Shown: positions 7,888 through 55,904 of the stretch, in pieces | Layout: each line of letters begins with the position of its first letter | Numbering within the stretch: position 1 is the stretch's first letter | Source: Chitinophagales bacterium | GTDB lineage: Bacteria; Bacteroidota; Bacteroidia; Chitinophagales; BACL12 | Reading direction: 5' to 3' | NCBI GenBank assembly: GCA_041751015.1 | Contig: JBGSYF010000030.1 | Span: 16,973-80,972, forward strand | DNA length: 64,000 bases | The notes under the pieces: generated by a model | What the model was told of the DNA's origin: nothing | The model's database searches: none | What the model saw: the letters and a program-made list of their open reading frames with translations, nothing else | Position numbers and translations under genes: made by a program

Positions 7888-9975
7888 ATGAATCACTTGA
7901 TACCCAGTTTTAAAGCCCTTAAACTCTTCATGCTCAGTCTGAGCTTTGGAGCTATAGCTCTGGTCAGCAGCCTCCCACTTCACGCGCAAATGGCCCGCAA
8001 GCAGCCTATGATGGAGCATTTTACCAATGCCTCCTGCGGTCCTTGTGCATCCCAAAATCCCCTCTTCGAGCCAGTGAGGGAGGCATTTCTCGGTTCGGCC
8101 AATCACGTGGCCTATCACACCTCCTGGCCCGGTACCGACCCTATGTACACCGCCAATGCGGCCGAGAATAACGCCATGGTCGCCGTTTATGGTGTGACAG
8201 GTGTACCCTCCATGATTCTTGACGGCGTCAATATCGGAGGTCCGGCTGGAGTTTCTGCTCAGACGCTGGAAAATGCCATCGCTCAGGGCAGCCCAATTCG
8301 GGTTCGGGTTGAGGAAAGCGGCACTACATCCCGCATGGTTGCTGTTCATGTGGATGGAGTTGGGGAGATTCCCTCTGGAACTTACCGACTCAGGGTACTG
8401 GTCATAGAAGACCCCAAGAACTACCTCAGTCCTCCCGGCAGCAACGGGGAGCGCAATTTCCCCAATGTATTCCGGAAGGCCCTTCCCGGAACGACAGGTA
8501 CGATCATTAGCCTTCCTGAATCAGGCAATACCGAAAGCTGGGGCTTCGAATACACGGTAGATCCCACCTGGGATGAAGCCAACACTTTTGTGGTGGCCTA
8601 TGTGCAAAACACCCTGACCAGGGAGGTACTCAACTCCGGCAGTTCACGATCTGCCCGCTATGAGCTGGCACCCGGTGCGGCACCGCTCTTTCAACCGGGC
8701 AATACCACCTCAGTTTTCCTCGGTGAGTTGCTGGAATTTGGAACCGGCACCGAGAGCCTGAAGATCTCTCTGAGTGCCGACCAACCCACGGCTGATGACT
8801 GGAATGCCACCTTGTACGTCAATGACAGCCCTTTCACGAGCGGCACTGACCTGACCATGAACGGCGGAGAAGTTGCCAGCATCAGATTGGACGTTACCTC
8901 TTATGACACACCCGGCATTGGCGAGTATTCGCTTGAAGTGAGCTCCAATGACAATCCTTCGCTGGCTCCTCAGCGCCTGCAATTTGTGGTAGTCAACAAC
9001 ATCACGGATTTGATTGTCAACTCCGGAGAGGGCTTTGGCGACGGAACTGCACCCGGATCTTATGATACTTACTTTCCCTTTACCGGCGGATTGGCTGCTA
9101 CAGGGCGTGAAACCCGCGCAAGCATGAGCCATTTCACCTTTGTCAGAGCCCTGCCCAGCGGAGTACTGGATGCTGTTCCCAATGTTTACTACAATGCCTC
9201 ATGGACCTTCCCGGCCATGTCCAATGAAAAGGTTGAGGCCTTCATGGACTTCCTGGATCGGGGGGGCAATCTCTTTATCAGCGGTCAGGATCTGGCCTGG
9301 GAGATCATGGACGCAGGCTCTCCTTATGGAACTCCTGTGAATCGCAATTTCTTCCTCAATTACCTCAAAGGCCTTTACACCGCAGACGGCTCTCCCGCCA
9401 CGACCAGCCTTAGCTTCAGCGATGGGGATACCTGGTTTGGCACTGCGGGTTCCAGTTCCATCAACCCTCTTTATGGCGCGGGCAATGTGTATCCGGATGA
9501 GATTCGCCCCAGCGGTCCGGAGGCTGTAGGCATCATGTACTACAACGGAGATCCTTCGCGTATTGGAGGTCTGCGCACGGAGGCAGATGGCTATAAGATG
9601 GTCTGGCTGGGCACGGGACTGGAGATGTTCGGTGACCAAACTGTTGCACGCGAAGTGGTTCAGTTGGCCCATGATTATTTCTGGAATGACCTGAGTGGGT
9701 TGGAGTTCGATGAGCTGCTCGCTGCAGCACTGCTGGGCCAGAACGCGCCAAATCCAGCCAACACCTACACGATCATTCCACTGTATGACTGGAACAGCGA
9801 TGGTGTGCTGAGGCTCAGCGACCTCCACGGCCGCCAGCTCAGAGAGATTCAGGTCAGCCCCGGTCAAAATCGGGTTGAACTGGATTTGAGCGGACTTTCC
9901 AACGGTCTTTACCTCTATACCCTGAGCGACGGGCAGCGCAGTACATCCGCCAAAAAGTTGACGGTTTTGCGCTAA
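7888..9975 (+). CDS. T9SS type-A cargo protein with N-terminal Omp28-like/thioredoxin-fold CxxC domain
   Basis: Signal peptide; EHFTNASCGPC, YHTSWPGTDP, GVTGVPSMILDG; C-terminal NAPNP...GLYLY...KKLTVLR CTD; start could be 7930. Confidence 0.85.
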   Translation: MNHLIPSFKALKLFMLSLSFGAIALVSSLPLHAQMARKQPMMEHFTNASCGPCASQNPLFEPVREAFLGSANHVAYHTSWPGTDPMYTANAAENNAMVAVYGVTGVPSMILDGVNIGGPAGVSAQTLENAIAQGSPIRVRVEESGTTSRMVAVHVDGVGEIPSGTYRLRVLVIEDPKNYLSPPGSNGERNFPNVFRKALPGTTGTIISLPESGNTESWGFEYTVDPTWDEANTFVVAYVQNTLTREVLNSGSSRSARYELAPGAAPLFQPGNTTSVFLGELLEFGTGTESLKISLSADQPTADDWNATLYVNDSPFTSGTDLTMNGGEVASIRLDVTSYDTPGIGEYSLEVSSNDNPSLAPQRLQFVVVNNITDLIVNSGEGFGDGTAPGSYDTYFPFTGGLAATGRETRASMSHFTFVRALPSGVLDAVPNVYYNASWTFPAMSNEKVEAFMDFLDRGGNLFISGQDLAWEIMDAGSPYGTPVNRNFFLNYLKGLYTADGSPATTSLSFSDGDTWFGTAGSSSINPLYGAGNVYPDEIRPSGPEAVGIMYYNGDPSRIGGLRTEADGYKMVWLGTGLEMFGDQTVAREVVQLAHDYFWNDLSGLEFDELLAAALLGQNAPNPANTYTIIPLYDWNSDGVLRLSDLHGRQLREIQVSPGQNRVELDLSGLSNGLYLYTLSDGQRSTSAKKLTVLR

Positions 9976-10025
9976 AACGCTATCTTTCCCACGATAATGT
10001 CTGGTCAGACACCTCAAATCAGACC

Positions 10026-10763
10026 ATGAAAAAACTCTATACCCTTAGCTTTCTCATAATCAGCGCCTTGTGGAGTGCTAATACGGCATCCGCACAGGGA
10101 TTGACGCTCAACATAGAACCCTGCGGTCAGGAGATGGACGGCAATGTCTGGGATTTAACCAAGTTACCGGCAGATCTTACCCACAGCGGCAGTACCACCA
10201 TCAATGTTGCCTGGGAACGCCTTTCTGTGGATATGCCAGAAGAGTGGTCAACAGCCGTTTGTGACCCCAACCAGTGTTATGCACCCATGGCCGATCAACC
10301 ACTTGGTCCTGGATCTGTGCTCATTCCCTTCAGTATGGATGCGGGAAGCACGGTGACCGGAGCGGAATTCTACGTTCAGTTTATCCCCAACGGAGTTTCG
10401 GGGAGCGGATCAGTCAGCCTTCGCGTTTATGAGGTGGGCAATCCCAACAACAGCCTGACTTGCAACTACACCTTCAATGCTCTGGCTACCAGTATTGGCC
10501 ATGTTCAGGCCTCTACCCCGCTGAGCATCTTCCCCAACCCCATTCACCAGACCATGCGGGTCAACGCCGCAACCGGAATGCCCATTAGCTCGGTTGAGAT
10601 TTATTCTATCGTAGGACGGATGATTCGCAAGATCGAACTGGGCGCTGAGCGTCAGAGTTTTGAACTCGACCTCGGAGGCCTGAAAGAGGGTATGTACTTT
10701 GCCCGTTTCATGAATAAGGACAACGAACTGGTGGAGTCCAGACGTTTTTCCAAGGTTAACTGA
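10026..10763 (+). CDS. Small T9SS type-A cargo protein with CxxxxC motif
   Basis: MKKLYTLS signal peptide; WSTAVCDPNQCY; IFPNP...YSIVGR...EGMYF...RRFSKVN CTD. Confidence 0.85.
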   Translation: MKKLYTLSFLIISALWSANTASAQGLTLNIEPCGQEMDGNVWDLTKLPADLTHSGSTTINVAWERLSVDMPEEWSTAVCDPNQCYAPMADQPLGPGSVLIPFSMDAGSTVTGAEFYVQFIPNGVSGSGSVSLRVYEVGNPNNSLTCNYTFNALATSIGHVQASTPLSIFPNPIHQTMRVNAATGMPISSVEIYSIVGRMIRKIELGAERQSFELDLGGLKEGMYFARFMNKDNELVESRRFSKVN

Positions 10764-10820
10764 TCAGTTCAACGAATCAGATTCAGGCGTCAGACTGACG
10801 CTTCAATGATTGATAGACAC

Positions 10821-10857
10821 AAAAAAACCGCCAGGATGTTCCTGGCGGTTTTTTTTT
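10821..10857. terminator. Bidirectional intrinsic terminator
   Basis: A7-CCGCCAGGA-tgt-TCCTGGCGG-T9 between convergent genes. Confidence 0.92.
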
Positions 10858-10871
10858 GTTTGATATGCGAT

Positions 10872-11399
10872 TCACTTACCCTTGCCAGCCATCTTAGCCA
10901 GCTCATCTTCCAATAAGTACTCATCGCCATCCACGTAACCGGCGTGCCGGCTGACGATCTTGCCTTCCTGATCAACAATGACCGTGAAGGGCACCTGCTG
11001 GAAATTGAGTTTTTGCTTGAGGATGCCATTGATGTCCACCAGCACATCATAGTCCCATCCCTGCCCATCCACATAAGCCTTTACCTTGGCCTTGTTGCGG
11101 GCATCATCGATGGAAATGGCCACCAATTCCATGTTGTAATCCTTCTGCCAATCTTCATACATTGGCGCAATGTTGTTGAGCTCCTTTTTGCAGGGAGTGC
11201 ACCAGGTAGCCCAGAAGTTCAGGACGGTTATCTTTCCGTTGCCGGCATAGCGATTGATGTCAACGCGCTCCCCATTGACATCTTGCAAACTGGCGTCGGG
11301 TAGTCTGTCTTGTGCCTGTGTAGTGAATGGTAGAAGCGCAAAAACAATGACGCTCAATCCGCAACGTATGCGGGAGCGAAAGGATTGATGGTTTATCAT
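10872..11399 (-). CDS. TlpA-family thiol-disulfide oxidoreductase (exported)
   Basis: Signal peptide; LNFWATWCTPCKKEL, AISID, cis-Pro motif QVPFT. Confidence 0.92.
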   Translation of the reverse strand: MINHQSFRSRIRCGLSVIVFALLPFTTQAQDRLPDASLQDVNGERVDINRYAGNGKITVLNFWATWCTPCKKELNNIAPMYEDWQKDYNMELVAISIDDARNKAKVKAYVDGQGWDYDVLVDINGILKQKLNFQQVPFTVIVDQEGKIVSRHAGYVDGDEYLLEDELAKMAGKGK

Positions 11400-11440
11400 G
11401 TATTGAGTGAGTTTCTTTTGGGGTTTTGGACATCAAATGT

Positions 11441-11455
11441 TCAAATTTCGTGCCA
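11441..11455 (-). promoter_or_regulatory. Candidate sigma-54 (-24/-12) promoter upstream of the TlpA gene
   Basis: Minus strand TGGCACG-AAAT-TTGA versus consensus TGGCACG-N4-TTGC; 41 nt upstream of the ATG. Confidence 0.55.
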
Positions 11456-11626
11456 TACGGGCGATTTCAGAACCCAGTGACCACTTAGGAGCCTTAAACT
11501 ACAAAAAAGGAGCAGCATCTGAGCCGAACTGCGCTCCAAAATCATGCAAACAGTTGCCTAAAGCTTCAGATTGAAGCATTTGGAACTTTATAAAACCCGA
11601 TTGCCGGACTACTTTTAGGCCTCCGC

Positions 11627-13249
11627 ATGCAAAGCCAGCTCCAGTCACGCGCTTCCGGCCTGGGAATCGCCTTGTTCAGTCTCCTTGCTCTACTGCTGCC
11701 CCTGGCGCACAATGGCCATGCTCAGGGTCAGTTCAGTGGCGATTTGCAGATGGAAACACAGTTTTACATCCGCGATACCCTTATTGGCGCCTCCAATACC
11801 GAGCACTATGATGTGCTCAAAAACGGCGGAGACTCCTGGCTATCCCTGAACTACCTCCAACCCGACTGGGATTTCTCCGCCGGAATCAGGATAGATGCCC
11901 ATTACAACTCCAACCTGCACAATCCCGGAACGGCCTTCACGGGCATTGGCGTTGGCACCTTCTATCTGCAAAAACGGGTGGATAAACTCGACATCACCGC
12001 AGGCTATTTCTACGAACAATTCGGCTCCGGGCTCAGTCTGCGCGCTTATGAGGAAAGAACACTGGGCATTGACAAAGCCCTGCTGGGGCTGCGTCTGCTC
12101 TACCAGTTCAACGAAAATTGGGCCTTCACCGGCCTGGTCGGAAAACAGCGCAATCGCTTTGATTTGTTTGCTCCCATCATCATGGGCGGGCGGCTCGAAG
12201 GCAGTTTTCAGGTCAACGAAAAGGCCTGGTTCAACCCCGGACTCTCCGTGGTCAACCGCAGCATGGACAAGGCCAATCTGGACCTGGTCCGGGCCAACCT
12301 GGCTCCCACCCTTGACCCGGGCGACAGCGTAAGACCCCTGAGCAATACCTATGTCGCGTCCATTTACAACAACATCGATCTGGGCAAGTTTAGCTGGTAT
12401 GTTGAACTGGCCGGCAAGACTCCGGAGTACCAGCGACCGGACGGCAGTCCCTGGGATCAGTATGGCAGCGCAGTGCTCAGCAGCCTGAGTTACTCCCGCA
12501 AAGGACTTGGACTCACAGGGCAAGTAAGACGTATAGAATCTTTTCTTTTACGAACGTCTCCCAACGAACAATTGCTGGACGGAATCTTCAATTTCCTGCC
12601 CACCCTGACCCGCCAAAACTCCCTGCGCCTTCCCGCGCGTTACAATCCCGTGGCCCAGGATCTCGGCGAAATGGGTTTCCAACTCGACGCGATCTACTCG
12701 CCCATCAAAGGTTATACTTTCAGCGCCAATTACTCCGACATACGCACGTTGGACAATCAAAATCTGTTCAGAGAAATATATGTTGATTTGGAATTGCGCA
12801 CCAGCACGAGCTGGAAACTATTGGGAGGAATTCAACATGTGCGCTATGATCAGGACTTCTACGAGAACAAACCCGGAGTTCGCCCGGTAAGCACGGTAAC
12901 TCCATTTGCAGAATTCTTATACAAATTAGATAAACGCAAATCACTGCGCCTGGAATTGCAGTATATGAACAATCCGGGCGATTTCGGAAGCTGGTTGTAC
13001 GGTCTGATCGAATTCAATATGGCTCCGAGTTTCTCTATCTCCATTGCCGACATGTACAATTTCGACCCCACCGACAAAAGCCCTGGCCAGATTCACTACT
13101 ACACCCTTTTTACTTCATATACACAAAAAGCCAATCGTTTTTACCTCAGTTATGCCCGTCAGGTCGAAGGGATCATCTGCACCGGAGGAGTTTGTCGGTT
13201 TGAACCCGCTTTCAATGGTGTCAAGTTAGGCGTAACTTCAAGTTTCTGA
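11627..13249 (+). CDS. DUF6029-like outer-membrane beta-barrel protein
   Basis: Signal peptide; ITAGYFYEQFGSGLSLRAYEERTLGID; amphipathic beta strands; C-terminal GIICTGGVCRFEP and terminal Phe. Confidence 0.8.
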   Translation: MQSQLQSRASGLGIALFSLLALLLPLAHNGHAQGQFSGDLQMETQFYIRDTLIGASNTEHYDVLKNGGDSWLSLNYLQPDWDFSAGIRIDAHYNSNLHNPGTAFTGIGVGTFYLQKRVDKLDITAGYFYEQFGSGLSLRAYEERTLGIDKALLGLRLLYQFNENWAFTGLVGKQRNRFDLFAPIIMGGRLEGSFQVNEKAWFNPGLSVVNRSMDKANLDLVRANLAPTLDPGDSVRPLSNTYVASIYNNIDLGKFSWYVELAGKTPEYQRPDGSPWDQYGSAVLSSLSYSRKGLGLTGQVRRIESFLLRTSPNEQLLDGIFNFLPTLTRQNSLRLPARYNPVAQDLGEMGFQLDAIYSPIKGYTFSANYSDIRTLDNQNLFREIYVDLELRTSTSWKLLGGIQHVRYDQDFYENKPGVRPVSTVTPFAEFLYKLDKRKSLRLELQYMNNPGDFGSWLYGLIEFNMAPSFSISIADMYNFDPTDKSPGQIHYYTLFTSYTQKANRFYLSYARQVEGIICTGGVCRFEPAFNGVKLGVTSSF

Positions 13250-13251
13250 TC

Positions 13252-14226
13252 ATGAACTTGCAAGAGCAGAAATCTACGGTTCGAACGGCCCCAGCAACCC
13301 GCCGCCAGCAGCTCTACACCTTTTTCAAGAGAGTTTCCCGCTTGGCGCCCAAGCCTCCTGTCTCTCTGCCAGGCAGAATCCGCCTGGCGAGTCTGGTTTT
13401 GCTCAGCCTGAGCAGCGCTTTACTGATGAGCAGTTGCGAAGAAGAAACCCCCTTCGTCACCGGCCCAGTCCTCACCCTGGACACCACCTATATCGATACG
13501 GATTTGCCCCCTGCCCAGGCTCGTGTGGTTCTGCTCGAAGACTTCACCGGTGTTCAATGCGTCAATTGCCCGGATGCACACAACCTGGCCAAGTCCCTGA
13601 TTCAGGCCAACCCCGGCCGCGTTGCAGCGGTATCCGAACACAACTACTTTCTGGGCGGCTATCCCAACAGCAGTGAAGACTTTCGCACCGATGAAGCCTT
13701 TGCCATCGATGCGCTGATCGGCCCCACGACGCTATGGCCCATCGGCACGGTCAACCGCCGTCAGTTCAGCGCTGAACCGGCCATCCTGCTGACCCTGCCC
13801 AAATGGACGGGCTATGTGGACAGTGAATTGCTGGAAGAGCCCCTCGTCAATGTGAGCATGGAGCTGGATTTGAAGCGCCCGGAGCGCCTGCTGGAGGTAC
13901 TGGTAGAAGCTCACTTTCTGGAAACCGTCCCTGAAGCCACCCGCCTGAGCGTGATGGTCCTGGAAAGTGGCATCGTTGATCCCCAACTGACCTTGAGCGG
14001 CATAGACGATGTCTATGTGCACGATCACGTGCTGAGAATCATGCCTACAGCCGCCACCGGTGCGCTGATCACCGTGAGTACCGAACAGGGTCGCGTCATT
14101 CGCCGCGGATATGAAGTGCAACTGAAAGAGCACTGGAACATGGATGAACTGGAGGTGGTGGTCTTTGTCCATCTCGGCGAGCTCGACAATCAGCGGGTCC
14201 TGCAGGCTGCTCTGGCCAAACCCTAA
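13252..14226 (+). CDS. Omp28-family outer-membrane lipoprotein (CxxC)
   Basis: Lipobox LLMSS-C followed by acidic EEE; VLLEDFTGVQCVNCP; YVHDHVLR; start uncertain. Confidence 0.85.
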   Translation: MNLQEQKSTVRTAPATRRQQLYTFFKRVSRLAPKPPVSLPGRIRLASLVLLSLSSALLMSSCEEETPFVTGPVLTLDTTYIDTDLPPAQARVVLLEDFTGVQCVNCPDAHNLAKSLIQANPGRVAAVSEHNYFLGGYPNSSEDFRTDEAFAIDALIGPTTLWPIGTVNRRQFSAEPAILLTLPKWTGYVDSELLEEPLVNVSMELDLKRPERLLEVLVEAHFLETVPEATRLSVMVLESGIVDPQLTLSGIDDVYVHDHVLRIMPTAATGALITVSTEQGRVIRRGYEVQLKEHWNMDELEVVVFVHLGELDNQRVLQAALAKP

Positions 14227-53858: not shown

Positions 53859-53999
53859 GAGATGCCCGGCGAATAGAGGTTAAAAGCCTGATAGAATCAG
53901 AAAGTGGGCAAAAATACCCCGGTCATTTGCAGATTTAGCGCATAAAGGATACTTTTAATGGTTAACTATCTGGCTGAACCCTCCATCCAAACTCCTACC

Positions 54000-55904
54000 A
54001 TGAAGAAGATCTTTACCCCCTTTCTCCTATTGCTCCTGGGCCTTTTCAGTGCATCTGAGCTGATGAGCCAAACCGTGCTCTACCAAACCGACTTTGAGAG
54101 TGGAATTCCGGCAACCTGGAGCCAAACCACTGCCGATGCCACCAGCAATGGCTTTGAACATGGCACCAGCATCTCTCTGAGCAGTGAGTATTTTCCCATT
54201 CCCGTGCACACCTTTTTTGTGGCGGCCAATGACGACAAGGACGGCTGCTGGACAGGCTCTGCTGACCCCTGCAGCAACCGCAGCGCTGACCGCCTGATCA
54301 TGCCTTCCATGGACTTCAGCGGTGTGAGCAATCCCCGACTGGTCTTTGACCGCTACTTTATTGAAGGCACCTATGTTTATACCGAAAGTGCAGCAGTGCA
54401 GGCCTCAACGGACAATGGCGCCTCCTGGACAACGGTAAAGACCCTGGACGGCGCTGGTGAATGGGTGACCGAATTGGTGGATCTCAGCGCCTACGGCGGC
54501 ATGCCCGATGTCAAGATTTGCTTTTTCTACAACGATGGAGGGGGATGGCTCTTTGGCCTGGCAGTTGATGATGTGAGCATCATTGAGCCGCCAGCTTATG
54601 ATATGGCCGCAACGGATCTGGTTGTTCCCAATTCCTACGAAGTGGCTGGAAGCCGCACGATTCAGGGCAGCCTGTTGAACAATGGTTCCGAAACGATCAA
54701 TAGCCTGACGCTCAATTACAGCATCAGCGGCGGTGCCACGGTCTCCGACAACCTGACTGGTCTCAATATCGTTCCGCTCGGCACCTACAGTTTCACCCAC
54801 CCCAGTGCCTGGATGGCCAGCGCTTCTGCCTCACAACAAACCATTGAAATCTGGGCCAGCAACCTGAATGGCTACCCCGATGAAGTACCGGCCAATGACC
54901 GCCTTACTAAAGGCCTTTACATTGTTGATGCCTCGCAGACCACGCCCCGCCATGTGTTGTTTGAGCATTTTACCAGCTCGAATTGCGCTCCCTGTGCTTC
55001 ACAGAATCCCGCCTACTTCAGTACTCTGAGCAACAATACCGACAAAGCCACTAACCTCTCTTACCACGTCTGGTGGCCTTATAGCACCGATCCCTTTTAT
55101 AACAGCTATACCGCCGGCCCACAAGCCAGGGTATCCTATTACAATAACGTCTTTGCCCCCTGGGCCTGGATGGACGGCAACAGCACTAATGGACTTGCTC
55201 AGGTCAACAATCTGTTGATCAACAATCGCCAGGCTTATCCGGCTCTGTTTGAGATTGATGCCTACGTGGTCATTAGCACTACAAACGAGCTTCAGGTTTC
55301 AGGCACACTCAAATCTCTGGCACCTTATTGGGGAACAGACGTCTCCCTGCACATTGTAGTGATGGAAGAGTACATTCCCGGTCCCAACCCAGACCCCAAC
55401 CCAAACTCGGAGAACAAGTTCGAAACCGTGGTTCGGCAAATGCTGCCATCACACAACGGCGCCGCTGTAATTGCACTCAATGCCGGTGGGGAACAAACGT
55501 TTAGCGGCAACTGGCCCATGGGGGGAACGGGCGTAAATCCCGATGAAATTGCGGTGGTTATTTTCGTGCAGGACAACACTACAAAGGCTGTGATGCAAAG
55601 TGCCTATTTCAAACCCGGTGTCAGCGGTCTCGAAGAGCTTCCGATCGCCAGCCAGTTGAAGCTCTATCCCAACCCTGCGCAGGATTTCAGTGTATTGCAC
55701 TTTGATCTGGAGCAGTCGGCCAACTTGAGGGTTGAGCTGTACGACCTGACGGGCCGCGTCATACAAAGCCTGAGCGAACAGAACTTCAGCCAGGGCCAGC
55801 ACACGCTGAACCTGAACTTGAGCGAACTGCACACCGGCGTTTACTTCGTAGCCCTTGTGGGCCAGAATGGACGGCAGCACATGCAGTTTCATGTGATCCG
55901 CTGA
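54000..55904 (+). CDS. T9SS type-A cargo with adhesin-like beta-sandwich and Omp28-like CxxC domain
   Basis: MKKIF signal peptide; DFESGIPATW, ASTDNGASW, AVDDVSI; FEHFTSSNCAPC, YHVWWP; LYPNP...YDLTGR...GVYFV CTD. Confidence 0.87.
   Translation: MKKIFTPFLLLLLGLFSASELMSQTVLYQTDFESGIPATWSQTTADATSNGFEHGTSISLSSEYFPIPVHTFFVAANDDKDGCWTGSADPCSNRSADRLIMPSMDFSGVSNPRLVFDRYFIEGTYVYTESAAVQASTDNGASWTTVKTLDGAGEWVTELVDLSAYGGMPDVKICFFYNDGGGWLFGLAVDDVSIIEPPAYDMAATDLVVPNSYEVAGSRTIQGSLLNNGSETINSLTLNYSISGGATVSDNLTGLNIVPLGTYSFTHPSAWMASASASQQTIEIWASNLNGYPDEVPANDRLTKGLYIVDASQTTPRHVLFEHFTSSNCAPCASQNPAYFSTLSNNTDKATNLSYHVWWPYSTDPFYNSYTAGPQARVSYYNNVFAPWAWMDGNSTNGLAQVNNLLINNRQAYPALFEIDAYVVISTTNELQVSGTLKSLAPYWGTDVSLHIVVMEEYIPGPNPDPNPNSENKFETVVRQMLPSHNGAAVIALNAGGEQTFSGNWPMGGTGVNPDEIAVVIFVQDNTTKAVMQSAYFKPGVSGLEELPIASQLKLYPNPAQDFSVLHFDLEQSANLRVELYDLTGRVIQSLSEQNFSQGQHTLNLNLSELHTGVYFVALVGQNGRQHMQFHVIR

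What the first reader, a model, noticed from the sequence alone, without database searches (positions are those of the whole stretch)
7888..14226. Five-gene envelope cluster where every protein has a cysteine pair: candidate trans-outer-membrane thiol-redox relay
Seen: T9SS cargo with thioredoxin-type CGPC (~8035); small T9SS cargo with CDPNQC (~10260); exported TlpA with WCTPC (~11190); a beta-barrel whose only two Cys are the C-terminal CTGGVC (~13178); and an Omp28 lipoprotein with CVNC (~13558) and an acidic motif after the lipidated Cys, like the Bacteroidota surface-export signal. Established: TlpA proteins are periplasmic reductases, T9SS cargo go to the surface, and Omp28/DUF6029 have no defined function that I know of. 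Inference: electrons pass from TlpA to the barrel Cys pair, then to surface Omp28 and secreted CxxC proteins. This would be an outer-membrane analogue of DsbD for reducing or isomerising surface or extracellular disulfides, or for handling metal/heme.
Basis: partly seen in the sequence, partly recalled or inferred. Interest (0 to 1): 0.8.

Follow-up and report, generated by a model that had tools for sequence, protein, structure and literature searches.

The report
Conserved outer-membrane cysteine-pair redox module
A periplasmic disulfide reductase, a very large outer-membrane barrel with an invariant cysteine hairpin and thioredoxin-like cell-surface proteins are kept together across Bacteroidota, which suggests an undescribed way of carrying thiol chemistry to the cell surface.

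Summary
All five ORFs and their cysteine pairs lie at the stated coordinates, and each pair is conserved in relatives. One correction: tlpA is on the minus strand, so there are three transcription units.

New here:
- The barrel (DUF6029) models as 24 strands, with C518/C523 closing a hairpin in the last extracellular connection.
- The Omp28 lipoprotein is a thioredoxin fold plus beta-sandwich, closest to P. gingivalis HBP35.
- The CGPC cargo carries the same domain.
- The small cargo is a remote PorA homologue.

Linkage is strong. Across 58 other genera, Cx4C is present in 57, TlpA lies upstream in 52, and a CxxC protein lies directly downstream in 40. Of 19 genomes with Omp28, 18 have the barrel.

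The co-occurrence and cysteine-conservation tests therefore pass. The relay itself is untested: I had no model coordinates, and the one complex job gave no verdict. By topology the barrel cysteines face outward, not toward the periplasm.

My best reading is a TlpA-barrel-surface-thioredoxin redox unit. The main rival is an usher-like exporter for its cysteine-pair partners.

I found no paper describing the module. This scan has noted it before in at least seven other genomes.

The parts
7888..9975 (+). g1: 695-aa T9SS cargo. It has an N-terminal Omp28/HBP35-type thioredoxin-like domain (CGPC, C50/C53, its only two Cys), a middle region and a type-A CTD.
   Evidence: Pfam Omp28 covers residues 97-250 (E 1.6e-11); Por_Secre_tail covers 621-693. 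Similar large Omp28+CTD proteins lie near the barrel in 10 of 50 and 7 of 80 loci.
10026..10763 (+). g2: 245-aa PorA-like small T9SS-CTD protein with an invariant Cys pair (C79/C84, CDPNQC).
   Evidence: The N-domain profile's only sub-threshold PDB hit is the PorA N-domain 6kjk (E 5.4e-4), with the Cys pair aligned. Relatives lie within 5 kb of the barrel in 21 of 50 and 15 of 80 loci.
10821..10855 (.). Hairpin with a 16-bp stem flanked by A and T runs, between the convergent g2 and tlpA. It is a likely bidirectional terminator.
   Evidence: consensus scan only.
10872..11399 (-). g3: periplasmic TlpA/ResA-type thioredoxin-fold reductase, 175 aa, WCTPC (C67/C70), with a plain signal peptide.
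   Evidence: The subfamily profile hits PDB 2m72 at E 4.3e-52, against 1e-30 for ResA. Only 6 TlpA-like matches exist in the 3.6-Mb genome.
11400..11626 (.). 227-bp divergent intergenic region shared by tlpA and the barrel gene; presumed promoter region.
   Evidence: The divergent arrangement recurs in 67 of 80 loci of the same order. No promoter was identified.
11627..13249 (+). g4: DUF6029 outer-membrane beta-barrel, 540 aa, modelled with 24 strands.
   Evidence: Model pLDDT 89.5. Best structural matches are the 24-strand ushers FimD (Z 19.5) and PapC (Z 18.5). It is the only copy in the genome.
13178..13195 (+). Codons for C518-T-G-G-V-C523. The two Cys face each other across a beta-hairpin (strands 515-519 and 522-526) in the last extracellular connection of the barrel.
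13252..14226 (+). g5: Omp28-family lipoprotein. Lipobox Cys C62 (codon 13435-13437) is followed by EEETPF; CVNC is at C103/C106 (13558-13569). The fold is thioredoxin plus beta-sandwich. The true start is probably downstream of 13252.
   Evidence: Model pLDDT 89.4. Best fold match is HBP35 5y1a (E 2.9e-12, TM 0.58/0.60). Most listed homologues cover only 67-93% of the ORF; its N-terminal extension is unmatched.

Best explanation
The region encodes a conserved envelope thiol-redox module. Its core is three proteins:
- a periplasmic TlpA-type reductase (g3);
- a 24-stranded DUF6029 outer-membrane barrel (g4), whose last extracellular connection is a beta-hairpin closed by an invariant Cx4C pair;
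- an Omp28/HBP35-type protein (g5) with a thioredoxin fold carrying CxxC plus a beta-sandwich, targeted to the outer membrane or cell surface.

Two accessory T9SS-tagged proteins belong to it: an HBP35-like CGPC protein (g1) and a PorA-like protein with its own invariant Cys pair (g2).

Proposed working. A DsbD/CcdA-type inner-membrane protein passes reducing equivalents to TlpA. TlpA passes them on, at or through the barrel, to the surface thioredoxin-fold proteins, which act on disulfides or another oxidised substrate outside the cell.

Shown computationally: the genes, the folds, conservation of every Cys pair, and the synteny and co-occurrence.

Inferred: localisation of each protein, the direction of electron flow, and the barrel's role. 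Two routes are possible. The barrel cysteines may be the relay (my odds about 0.3). Alternatively, TlpA and the surface protein may meet directly inside the wide lumen, as the haem proteins do in MtrCAB.
For: Synteny:
- Across 58 other genera, a WCxPC TlpA lies within 1.4 kb upstream of the barrel in 52 of 58, and within 250 bp in 49.
- In several loci the two ORFs overlap by about 3 nt.
- A CxxC protein lies within 500 bp downstream on the same strand in 40 of 58.
- Pfam on these 40 plus g5 gave Omp28 in 31 of 41, Redoxin in 11 of 41 and a T9SS CTD in 14 of 41.
- In 80 loci of the window's own order: TlpA 68 of 80, Omp28 downstream 69 of 80, Cx4C 80 of 80. Many of these loci are cut by contig ends.

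Background rate: the window's genome has only 6 TlpA-like matches in 3.6 Mb.

Genome level: PF11551 occurs in 19 of 101 genomes, and 18 of those carry DUF6029.

Cys pairs are invariant in every partner.

Folds and relatives:
- g5 has a thioredoxin fold with CxxC at the N-terminus of helix 106-119.
- Its best structural match is HBP35, with profile E 1.7e-5.
- HBP35 is a surface T9SS cargo with thioredoxin activity in vitro, and its physiological reductant is unknown (PMC2907840; abstract and Discussion read).

Barrel:
- The hairpin lies on the same, outer side as the partners.
- The other most conserved barrel segments are also extracellular connections, residues 126-150 and 308-339.

Electron source: the genome has one DsbD_TM gene.

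P. gingivalis has consecutive loci PG2175 (thioredoxin-domain protein), PG2174 (uncharacterised, found in OMVs), PG2173 (Omp28) and PG2172 (PorA). Sources: passages of PMC13744359 and PMC4335976, and Table 2 of PMC7712824.
Against: - There is no biochemical or structural evidence of contact.
- By topology TlpA and the barrel hairpin are on opposite faces of the membrane, and I had no model coordinates to see whether the hairpin dips into the lumen.
- A cross-strand disulfide in a loop can be purely structural.
- TlpA is missing from the fetched flank in 6 of 58 loci. In two of these, L080 and L084, less than 3.1 kb of upstream sequence was available.
- Omp28 is not directly downstream in 18 of 58 loci. 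In some of these lineages Omp28-like genes lie upstream instead. One family uses a Redoxin-type lipoprotein.
- Surface exposure of the lipoprotein rests only on acidic residues after the Cys. These resemble the published Bacteroidota export signal but do not match it (signal recalled, not tested).
- The loci share ancestry, so the counts overstate independence.
Confidence: 0.55

Rival explanations
1. The barrel is a dedicated, usher-like translocon or anchor. It takes its own cysteine-pair partners (the Omp28 lipoprotein and the PorA-like protein) to the cell surface. TlpA keeps their cysteines reduced in the periplasm. The barrel hairpin captures or releases them by disulfide exchange.
For: - The best structural matches of the barrel are the 24-strand pilus ushers FimD (Z 19.5, 366 residues aligned) and PapC (Z 18.5).
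- g2 is a remote PorA homologue.
[quoted passage not shown] Its route is unknown (PMC7712824, passages read).
- porA (PG2172) is numbered next to Omp28 (PG2173), PG2174 and PG2175.
- How Bacteroidota surface lipoproteins cross the outer membrane is unsolved (recalled).
Against: - The barrel has no usher plug and no periplasmic N- or C-terminal domains; the barrel spans residues 34-540 of 540.
- 18-strand porins score nearly as high (Z 16-18), so the match may reflect only the barrel fold.
- PorA-like genes accompany the barrel in only 21 of 50 and 15 of 80 loci.
- In 14 of the 41 scanned, the downstream partner carries a T9SS CTD and so has another export route.
- A reductase is not obviously needed for export.
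Confidence: 0.2
2. The module handles a metal or haem at the surface. The Omp28/HBP35-type proteins bind and perhaps reduce it, the barrel is the uptake channel, the cysteine pairs act as ligands, and TlpA keeps those ligand cysteines reduced. TlpA does this for copper-site proteins in rhizobia (recalled).
For: - HBP35 binds hemin, and its mutant grows poorly when hemin is scarce (PMC2907840, abstract and Discussion).
- The Omp28 family has a nearly invariant Y255-x-H257 and an invariant R262 (window VYVHDHVLR). This stretch aligns with YEHNHVLR of Omp28 2r2c and YLHQH of HBP35.
- Large barrels such as TonB-dependent receptors import metal chelates.
Against: - The HBP35 paper places hemin binding outside the CxxC: the C48S/C51S mutant still binds hemin.
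- g1 and the paralogue at 53958-55904 lack the His motif.
- The barrel has no TonB box or plug.
- No metal-transport genes lie in the neighbourhood.
Confidence: 0.1
3. The barrel Cys pair is an ordinary structural loop disulfide. The neighbouring redox genes act on other substrates, and their linkage is inherited gene order without joint function.
For: Cross-strand disulfides that staple beta-hairpins are common. No interaction has been shown.
Against: - The linkage persists from the window's order to lineages where the window's barrel matches only at phmmer E 1e-4 to 1e-8.
- It survives inversion of tlpA: divergent in 8 and co-directional in 44 of the 52 loci.
- It survives replacement of Omp28 by a Redoxin lipoprotein.
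- Omp28 is almost confined to barrel-bearing genomes (18 of 19).
Confidence: 0.05
4. DUF6029 is a Wzi-like porin for polysaccharide export or capsule attachment.
For: PMC9603273 (passages read) reports HHpred similarity between Wzi-barrel-like proteins encoded near OPX genes and DUF6029. Wzi 2ynk aligns to the model at Z 14.1.
Against: - No OPX, Wzx/Wzy or glycosyltransferase genes flank the barrel in the window. The flanks are rsmI-like and pheT-like genes, named from the translations by recall; no family search was run on them.
- The conserved neighbours are redox proteins.
- Wzi ranks below many unrelated barrels.
Confidence: 0.03

Closest known systems
HBP35 of Porphyromonas gingivalis (PG0616; PDB 5y1a)
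   Same: - It has a thioredoxin domain with CxxC followed by a beta-sandwich.
- It is the best fold match of g5 (E 2.9e-12, TM 0.58/0.60) and a profile match (E 1.7e-5).
- Like g1, it is a T9SS-CTD surface protein with the CxxC about 50 residues from the N-terminus.
- Thioredoxin activity was shown in vitro (PMC2907840).
   Different: - g5 is a lipoprotein, not a T9SS cargo, and shares only 18% identity.
- g1 has about 370 extra residues between the domain and the CTD.
- Hemin binding was not tested here.
- No link between HBP35 and a barrel or TlpA is described in the papers I read.
P. gingivalis PG2175 - PG2174 - Omp28 (PG2173, PDB 2r2c) - PorA (PG2172, PDB 6kjk)
   Same: - The window's families match the solved members. 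The Omp28 profile hits 2r2c at E 8.2e-29.
- The PorA-like profile hits 6kjk at E 5.4e-4, with the Cys pair aligned.
- The TlpA profile hits 2m72 at E 4.3e-52. Only earlier scan notes say 2m72 is PG2175.
- The consecutive locus numbers suggest the same module.
   Different: - I could not read the P. gingivalis genome, so adjacency and the DUF6029 nature of PG2174 are not verified here.
- In the window, tlpA is inverted and the PorA-like gene lies upstream rather than downstream.
- The PorA paper treats PorA as a Porphyromonas-only regulator input. It mentions no disulfide, no Omp28 and no operon (0 occurrences).
DsbD/CcdA -> TlpA / ResA / CcmG periplasmic reducing pathways
   Same: - g3 is a signal-peptide thioredoxin-fold protein with WCxPC. 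Its best NCBIfam matches are ResA, StoA and TlpA.
- The genome has a DsbD_TM gene.
- The logic is the same: a cascade of thiol-disulfide exchanges across a membrane.
   Different: - Known pathways end in the periplasm.
- None has an outer-membrane barrel or surface thioredoxins as partners.
- g3 is below the cut-off of every named NCBIfam equivalog (for example TlpA, 65.2 against 230 bits).
MtrCAB porin-cytochrome complex (PDB 6r2q)
   Same: The three-part architecture matches: a periplasmic redox protein, a very large barrel and a surface redox lipoprotein. MtrCAB is the only established kind of trans-outer-membrane electron conduit. MtrB aligns to the model at Z 13.5.
   Different: - MtrCAB uses haem wires. 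None of the five proteins here has a CxxCH motif (sequences).
- MtrB has 26 strands (recalled).
- There is no sequence relationship.
Chaperone-usher pore (FimD, PapC)
   Same: Both are 24-strand barrels, and these are the best structural matches (Z 19.5 and 18.5; Foldseek E 3.7e-10). A FimH-like protein, PorA, is a genetic partner in related loci.
   Different: There is no plug, no N- or C-terminal periplasmic domains, no chaperone gene and no pilin genes. Sequence identity is 9%.

Membership tests
DUF6029 (PF19494) | Pfam model score above the gathering cut-off over the full length | tested here: met
   414.9 bits against a cut-off of 27; model positions 9-538 of 538.
DUF6029 (PF19494) | C-terminal C-x4-C hairpin before the last strand. 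This is my own criterion, derived from the alignments. | tested here: met
   CTGGVC at residues 518-523. Invariant in 38 of 38; present in 57 of 58 genera and 80 of 80 loci.
TlpA/ResA-type periplasmic thiol-disulfide oxidoreductases | Thioredoxin fold with a WCxPC active site | tested here: met
   AhpC-TSA 76.8 bits, Redoxin 59.8 bits and Thioredoxin_8 53.5 bits, all above their cut-offs. WCTPC at residues 66-70.
TlpA/ResA-type periplasmic thiol-disulfide oxidoreductases | Export signal placing it in the periplasm | tested here: inconclusive
   An N-terminal hydrophobic stretch ends in TQA|QD. My regex found no lipobox in 51 of 53 orthologues. No signal-peptide predictor was available.
TlpA/ResA-type periplasmic thiol-disulfide oxidoreductases | Membership of a named NCBIfam equivalog (TlpA NF047696, ResA NF002854, DsbE) | tested here: not met
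   65.2 against 230, 84.1 against 170 and 51.4 against 123 bits. It belongs instead to a separate barrel-linked subfamily whose closest solved member is 2m72.
Omp28 family (PF11551 / NF033782) | Pfam Omp28 domain above the cut-off | tested here: met
   g5 scores 67.9 and g1 scores 44.7, against a cut-off of 34.9 bits.
Omp28 family (PF11551 / NF033782) | NCBIfam lipoprot_Omp28 subfamily cut-off | tested here: not met
   g5 scores 100.9 and g1 scores 29.4, against a cut-off of 150 bits. These are divergent members.
Omp28 family (PF11551 / NF033782) | Lipobox cysteine | tested here: met
   C62 in LMSSC is invariant in 56 of 56. This applies to g5 only; g1 has a T9SS CTD instead.
HBP35-like surface thioredoxins | Thioredoxin domain with CxxC plus a beta-sandwich, similar to 5y1a | tested here: met
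   secondary structure; TM 0.58/0.60; E 1.7e-5.
HBP35-like surface thioredoxins | Disulfide reductase activity and hemin binding | not testable with these tools
   Both need an insulin-reduction assay and a hemin-binding assay.
T9SS type-A cargo | C-terminal sorting domain (PF18962 / TIGR04183) above the cut-off | tested here: met
   g1 scores 34.9 and 33.8 bits; g2 scores 39.0 and 30.3 bits. The cut-offs are 27 and 23.
PorA (P. gingivalis PGN_0123) | Sequence similarity of the N-terminal Ig-like domain | tested here: inconclusive
   The profile of 18 N-domains hits 6kjk at E 5.4e-4 (22.7 bits) over 53 residues. It is the only hit below E 1. The match is weak, and no structure of g2 was predicted.
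PorA (P. gingivalis PGN_0123) | Architecture: signal peptide, about 135-aa domain, type-A CTD, about 246 aa in all | tested here: met
   g2 is 245 aa with its CTD from residue 168. PorA is 246 aa with its CTD from D163 (PMC7712824).
DsbD-like transmembrane thiol relay | A membrane-embedded Cys pair reachable from both faces that carries electrons | not testable with these tools
   Only topology could be inferred: the hairpin lies in the last extracellular connection. No coordinates were available.
MtrCAB-type porin-cytochrome conduit | Multihaem c-type cytochromes (CxxCH motifs) | tested here: not met
   No CxxCH is present in any of the five proteins (sequences). The system may work like an Mtr complex but is not a member.
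Chaperone-usher pathway usher | Plug domain plus periplasmic N- and C-terminal domains | tested here: not met
   The barrel strands span residues 35-539 of 540, with only a signal peptide before them.

The most novel reading that the evidence does not exclude
The DUF6029 barrel is the outer-membrane link of a thiol-based trans-envelope redox chain: DsbD-type protein, then TlpA, then the barrel Cx4C hairpin, then surface Omp28/HBP35- and PorA-type proteins. This would be a disulfide-exchange counterpart of the haem-based MtrCAB conduit. It would explain how cell-surface thioredoxins such as HBP35 are recharged. It might also explain how PorA, whose Cys pair is conserved, senses or signals the redox state of the surface to the T9SS regulators.
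Probability: 0.3. Interest if true: 0.9.

Novelty: new variant of a known kind. Interest (0 to 1): 0.72.

Why it matters
Thiol-disulfide pathways are known to reach the periplasm, but not to cross the outer membrane. The reductant of surface thioredoxins such as HBP35 is stated to be unknown (PMC2907840).

This module gives a concrete, genetically testable candidate for that reductant pathway. It is present in about a quarter of the Bacteroidota genomes sampled (104 of 401).

It also ties three solved but functionally orphan P. gingivalis proteins into one unit with an unstudied barrel: Omp28 (2r2c), the 2m72 thioredoxin and PorA (6kjk). It further widens the PorA family beyond Porphyromonas.

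If instead the barrel is an exporter, it bears on two open questions. One is how PorA reaches the surface without the T9SS. The other is how Bacteroidota surface lipoproteins cross the outer membrane.

Tried and rejected
- Complex prediction: barrel residues 32-540, TlpA 30-175 and Omp28 63-324, with Omp28 as the partner. It returned 'no answer' (ipSAE 0.29, 0.34, 0.15; mark 0.32), and the controls were not run. This is neither for nor against binding.
- Selenocysteine at the cysteine positions. An in-frame TGA in one barrel (G108) lies far from the Cx4C and looks like a break or a sequencing error. The TGA flagged in an Omp28 match of G075 lies between genes. Neither is evidence either way.
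- Sequence searches of the barrel profile against the PDB found nothing meaningful (best E 0.68). g5 and the N-terminal 291 residues of g1, each as a single sequence, were also near noise. Only profiles and folds gave matches.
- Sigma-70 promoter scan: 7 found against 4.8 expected, so not informative. Bacteroidota promoters differ from this consensus.
- My first iterated profiles cross-contaminated (Omp28, CTD and Trx hit each other). I rebuilt clean ones. The clean barrel profile, built from the window's order only, missed 9 of the 58 distant loci. The 58-locus counts therefore come, and the 50-locus counts.
- timed out and was redone in steps.
- One search used too strict an E-value (1e-30) and returned nothing. 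It was repeated on 101 genomes at 1e-6.
- Literature: 'DUF6029' is in 2 papers, 1 listed. 'Omp28' plus 'TlpA' gave 4 unrelated papers. 'Omp28-related', 'Omp28 family' or PF11551 gave 2 papers that only list the protein. PG2173-PG2175 and PGN_0124-0126 gave 4 proteome or transcriptome listings. None describes the module.
- I considered and dropped a polysaccharide-export role and chance linkage (see the rivals).

Full report
**What is there.** The region holds five ORFs.
- g1: 7888-9975 +, 695 aa.
- g2: 10026-10763 +, 245 aa.
- g3: 10872-11399, minus strand, 175 aa.
- g4: 11627-13249 +, 540 aa.
- g5: 13252-14226 +, 324 aa.

A script placed every cysteine.
- g1 has only C50/C53 (CGPC).
- g2 has four, including C79/C84 (CDPNQC).
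- g3 has C67/C70 (WCTPC), plus one in the signal peptide.
- g4 has only C518/C523 (CTGGVC).
- g5 has the lipobox C62 and C103/C106 (CVNC).

First, tlpA is on the opposite strand, divergent from the barrel across 227 bp. Second, a 16-bp-stem hairpin with flanking A and T runs lies between g2 and the 3' end of tlpA. The cluster is therefore three transcription units: g1-g2, tlpA, and barrel-g5. The barrel stop and the annotated g5 start are 3 bp apart. Most listed homologues of g5 cover only 67-93% of the ORF, leaving its N-terminal extension unmatched, so the real start is probably later.

**Families.**
- g4 is a full-length DUF6029 protein (E 6.6e-124).
- g3 is a TlpA/ResA-type thioredoxin-fold protein, but it falls below the cut-off of every named NCBIfam equivalog.
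- g5 and the N-terminal part of g1 carry the Omp28 domain.
- g1 and g2 end in type-A T9SS sorting domains.
- NCBIfam also holds an 'Omp28-related selenoprotein' model. It weakly matches the CxxC region of g5 (29.8 bits, cut-off 200). I treat this as a lead only.

**Structures.**

The barrel model (pLDDT 89.5, pTM 0.81) has 24 membrane strands by my count of the DSSP elements.
- Between strand 23 (503-512) and strand 24 (529-539) lies a short beta-hairpin (515-519 and 522-526). C518 and C523 face each other across a G520-G521 turn.
- Outer-membrane barrels have both termini in the periplasm, and this one ends in the usual C-terminal Phe. The connection before the last strand is therefore extracellular.
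- So the cysteine pair lies on the outer side or folds into the lumen from there. No coordinates are returned, so I cannot say which.
- The other most conserved segments of the family are residues 126-150 and 308-339. By the same parity they are also extracellular connections. This suggests a functional site in the outer vestibule or lumen.
- Structural matches are the 24-strand ushers FimD (Z 19.5, rmsd 4.6, 366 aligned) and PapC (Z 18.5). They are followed by 18-strand OccD-type porins (Z 16-18), Wzi (14.1) and MtrB (13.5).
- The protein has no plug and no periplasmic domains.

The g5 model (pLDDT 89.4) shows a thioredoxin fold followed by a beta-sandwich.
- The CxxC sits at the N-terminus of helix 106-119.
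- Its best match in the PDB is HBP35 of P. gingivalis (5y1a; E 2.9e-12, TM 0.58/0.60, 260 columns).
- Next come 2axo, described in the PDB listing only as Agrobacterium protein AGR_C_4864/Atu2684, and the Omp28 domain 2r2c.
- The family profile also finds 2r2c (E 8.2e-29) and 5y1a (E 1.7e-5) by sequence.
- HBP35 is a T9SS-anchored surface protein. Its recombinant form reduces insulin in a CxxC-dependent way and binds hemin. The authors state that the physiological role of its thioredoxin domain is unknown (PMC2907840; abstract and Discussion read).

**The small cargo is PorA-like.** Proteins like g2 recur near the barrel. All 18 that I aligned keep the cysteine pair.
[quoted passage not shown] The Cys pair aligns to PorA's CFGQC. 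The similarity is weak.
- The architecture is the same: 245 against 246 aa, with the CTD from residue 168 against 163.
- According to PMC7712824 (passages read), PorA (PGN_0123/PG2172) feeds the PorXY-SigP pathway that controls T9SS genes.
- It has a FimH-like Ig domain and reaches the surface even without the T9SS translocon.
- The paper reports BLAST homologues only in Porphyromonas. It does not mention a disulfide, Omp28 or an operon (0 occurrences).
- The idea to test PorA came from earlier notes of this scan.

**Linkage.**

DUF6029 occurs in 104 of 401 sampled Bacteroidota genomes, in 59 of 180 genera, and once in the window's genome. I fetched about 7 kb either side of the barrel in one genome from each of the 58 other genera. 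I then classified the ORFs with profiles seeded from the window's proteins.

Results over the 58 loci:
- Cx4C near the C-terminus in 57. The exception has a broken frame.
- A 157-209-aa WCxPC TlpA within 1.4 kb upstream in 52, and within 250 bp in 49. It is divergent in 8 and co-directional in 44, and in several loci overlaps the barrel ORF by about 3 nt.
- No TlpA in six loci (L040, L060, L065, L080, L084, L091). Two of these, L080 and L084, had less than 3.1 kb of upstream sequence.
- A CxxC protein within 500 bp downstream on the same strand in 40.

Pfam on those 40 proteins plus g5 gave Omp28 in 31 of 41, Redoxin in 11, a T9SS CTD in 14 and DUF1223 in 7. In one family of genomes the downstream gene is a Redoxin-type lipoprotein (CPHC) instead of Omp28. 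In another, the Omp28-CTD and PorA-like genes lie upstream of tlpA, as g1 and g2 do here.

A second sample of 80 loci came from the window's own order: Chitinophagales and Saprospiraceae MAGs, plus Phaeodactylibacter luteus. It was scored with clean profiles.
- Cx4C in 80 of 80.
- TlpA upstream in 68, of which 67 are divergent.
- Omp28 directly downstream in 69.
- A PorA-like gene within 5 kb in 15.
- Several of these loci are cut by contig ends, so the counts are lower bounds.

For background, the window's 3.6-Mb genome has only 6 TlpA-like matches.

At genome level, PF11551 is found in 19 of 101 genomes.
- Of those 19, 18 are DUF6029-positive. The exception is G071.
- The six DUF6029-positive genomes of that sample that lack Omp28 all belong to the family with the Redoxin lipoprotein.
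- This cross-tabulation assumes that a handle denotes the same genome in both calls.
- The genomes are related, so none of these counts is a set of independent events.

**P. gingivalis.** The barrel-linked TlpA profile hits PDB 2m72 at E 4.3e-52, far above ResA at 1e-30. Papers give these identities:
- PG2172 is PorA (PMC7712824, Table 2).
- PG2173 is Omp28, and PG2175 is a thioredoxin-domain protein (PMC13744359, passages).
- PG2174 is an uncharacterised protein found in outer-membrane vesicles (PMC4335976, passage).

Earlier scan notes say that 2m72 is PG2175 and that PG2174 is a DUF6029 protein. I could not check either claim.

**How it most likely works.**

Localisation is inferred.
- TlpA has a plain signal peptide, and no lipobox was found in 51 of 53 orthologues.
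- g1 and g2 carry T9SS tags.
- The protein downstream of the barrel carries either a T9SS tag or a lipobox whose Cys is followed by acidic residues. Examples are CEEE here and CDxVD or CDxIDE in many relatives. This resembles the Bacteroidota surface-lipoprotein export signal as I recall it, but is not identical to it.

A periplasmic reductase is thus tightly coupled to a barrel whose conserved features face outward, and to thioredoxin-fold proteins that are sent outward. The genome has one DsbD-type gene to feed TlpA.

I conclude that the module is a functional unit linking periplasmic reducing power to surface thiol proteins (confidence 0.55). Within that, the barrel cysteines acting as the relay is one option (about 0.3). 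The other is direct contact between TlpA and Omp28 inside the wide lumen, in the manner of MtrCAB.

The main rival (0.2) is that the barrel exports or anchors its cysteine-pair partners. It rests on the usher-like fold, PorA's FimH-like domain and PorA's T9SS-independent route. Minor rivals are metal or haem handling (0.1; HBP35 binds hemin, and Omp28 proteins share a YxHxH...R motif), a merely structural disulfide (0.05) and polysaccharide export (0.03; PMC9603273).

**Novelty.** My searches found no paper that describes the module. Supplements were closed. The same module has been noted by this scan in at least seven other genomes. My tests agree with those notes, and they gave me the PorA and P. 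gingivalis leads. The components are members of known families. The combination, and any trans-outer-membrane thiol chemistry, would be new.

Noticed in passing
window 53958-55904 (+): A third HBP35/Omp28-like T9SS cargo, 648 aa. Its motif EHFTSSNCAPCASQNP closely resembles g1's EHFTNASCGPCASQNP. It has an extra N-terminal domain and a CTD. It lies 40 kb from the module with no TlpA or barrel beside it.
   Followed up: partly
G000:C2:20902-21366 and G000:C31:145106-145582 (outside the window): Two further Omp28-domain ORFs (291 and 369 aa) lie elsewhere in the genome. That makes five Omp28-domain proteins for a single DUF6029 barrel.
   Followed up: no
g5 residues 253-262 (window about 14008-14037): The motif VYVHDHVLR has Y255 and H257 nearly invariant and R262 invariant in 56 Omp28 homologues. 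It aligns with YEHNHVLR in Omp28 2r2c and YLHQH in HBP35. This is a possible metal or haem site. g1 lacks it.
   Followed up: partly
L058, L063, L068, L073, L074, L082 and others (one genome family, f32): A variant module. The barrel is shorter (about 503 aa) with CTSGICYE. It is followed by a 172-178-aa Redoxin-type lipoprotein (CPHC), and often by a 266-275-aa thioredoxin-like protein that also matched my cross-contaminated CTD profile. There is no Pfam Omp28.
   Followed up: partly
L175 (G108:C1:109500-117500), barrel ORF: One in-frame TGA interrupts the DUF6029 ORF in the middle of the barrel, not at the Cx4C. This is probably a pseudogene or a sequencing error.
   Followed up: yes
L176 (G075:C6), between the two Omp28 lipoprotein genes downstream of the barrel: A small secreted protein of about 170 aa with a CCGSNC motif and no CTD. 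It may be a CTD-less PorA-like protein.
   Followed up: no
window 13252-13434: The annotated g5 ORF starts 61 codons before the lipobox Cys, whereas homologues have about 20. The first part is probably untranslated. A hairpin-like element at 13367-13389 lies inside it.
   Followed up: partly
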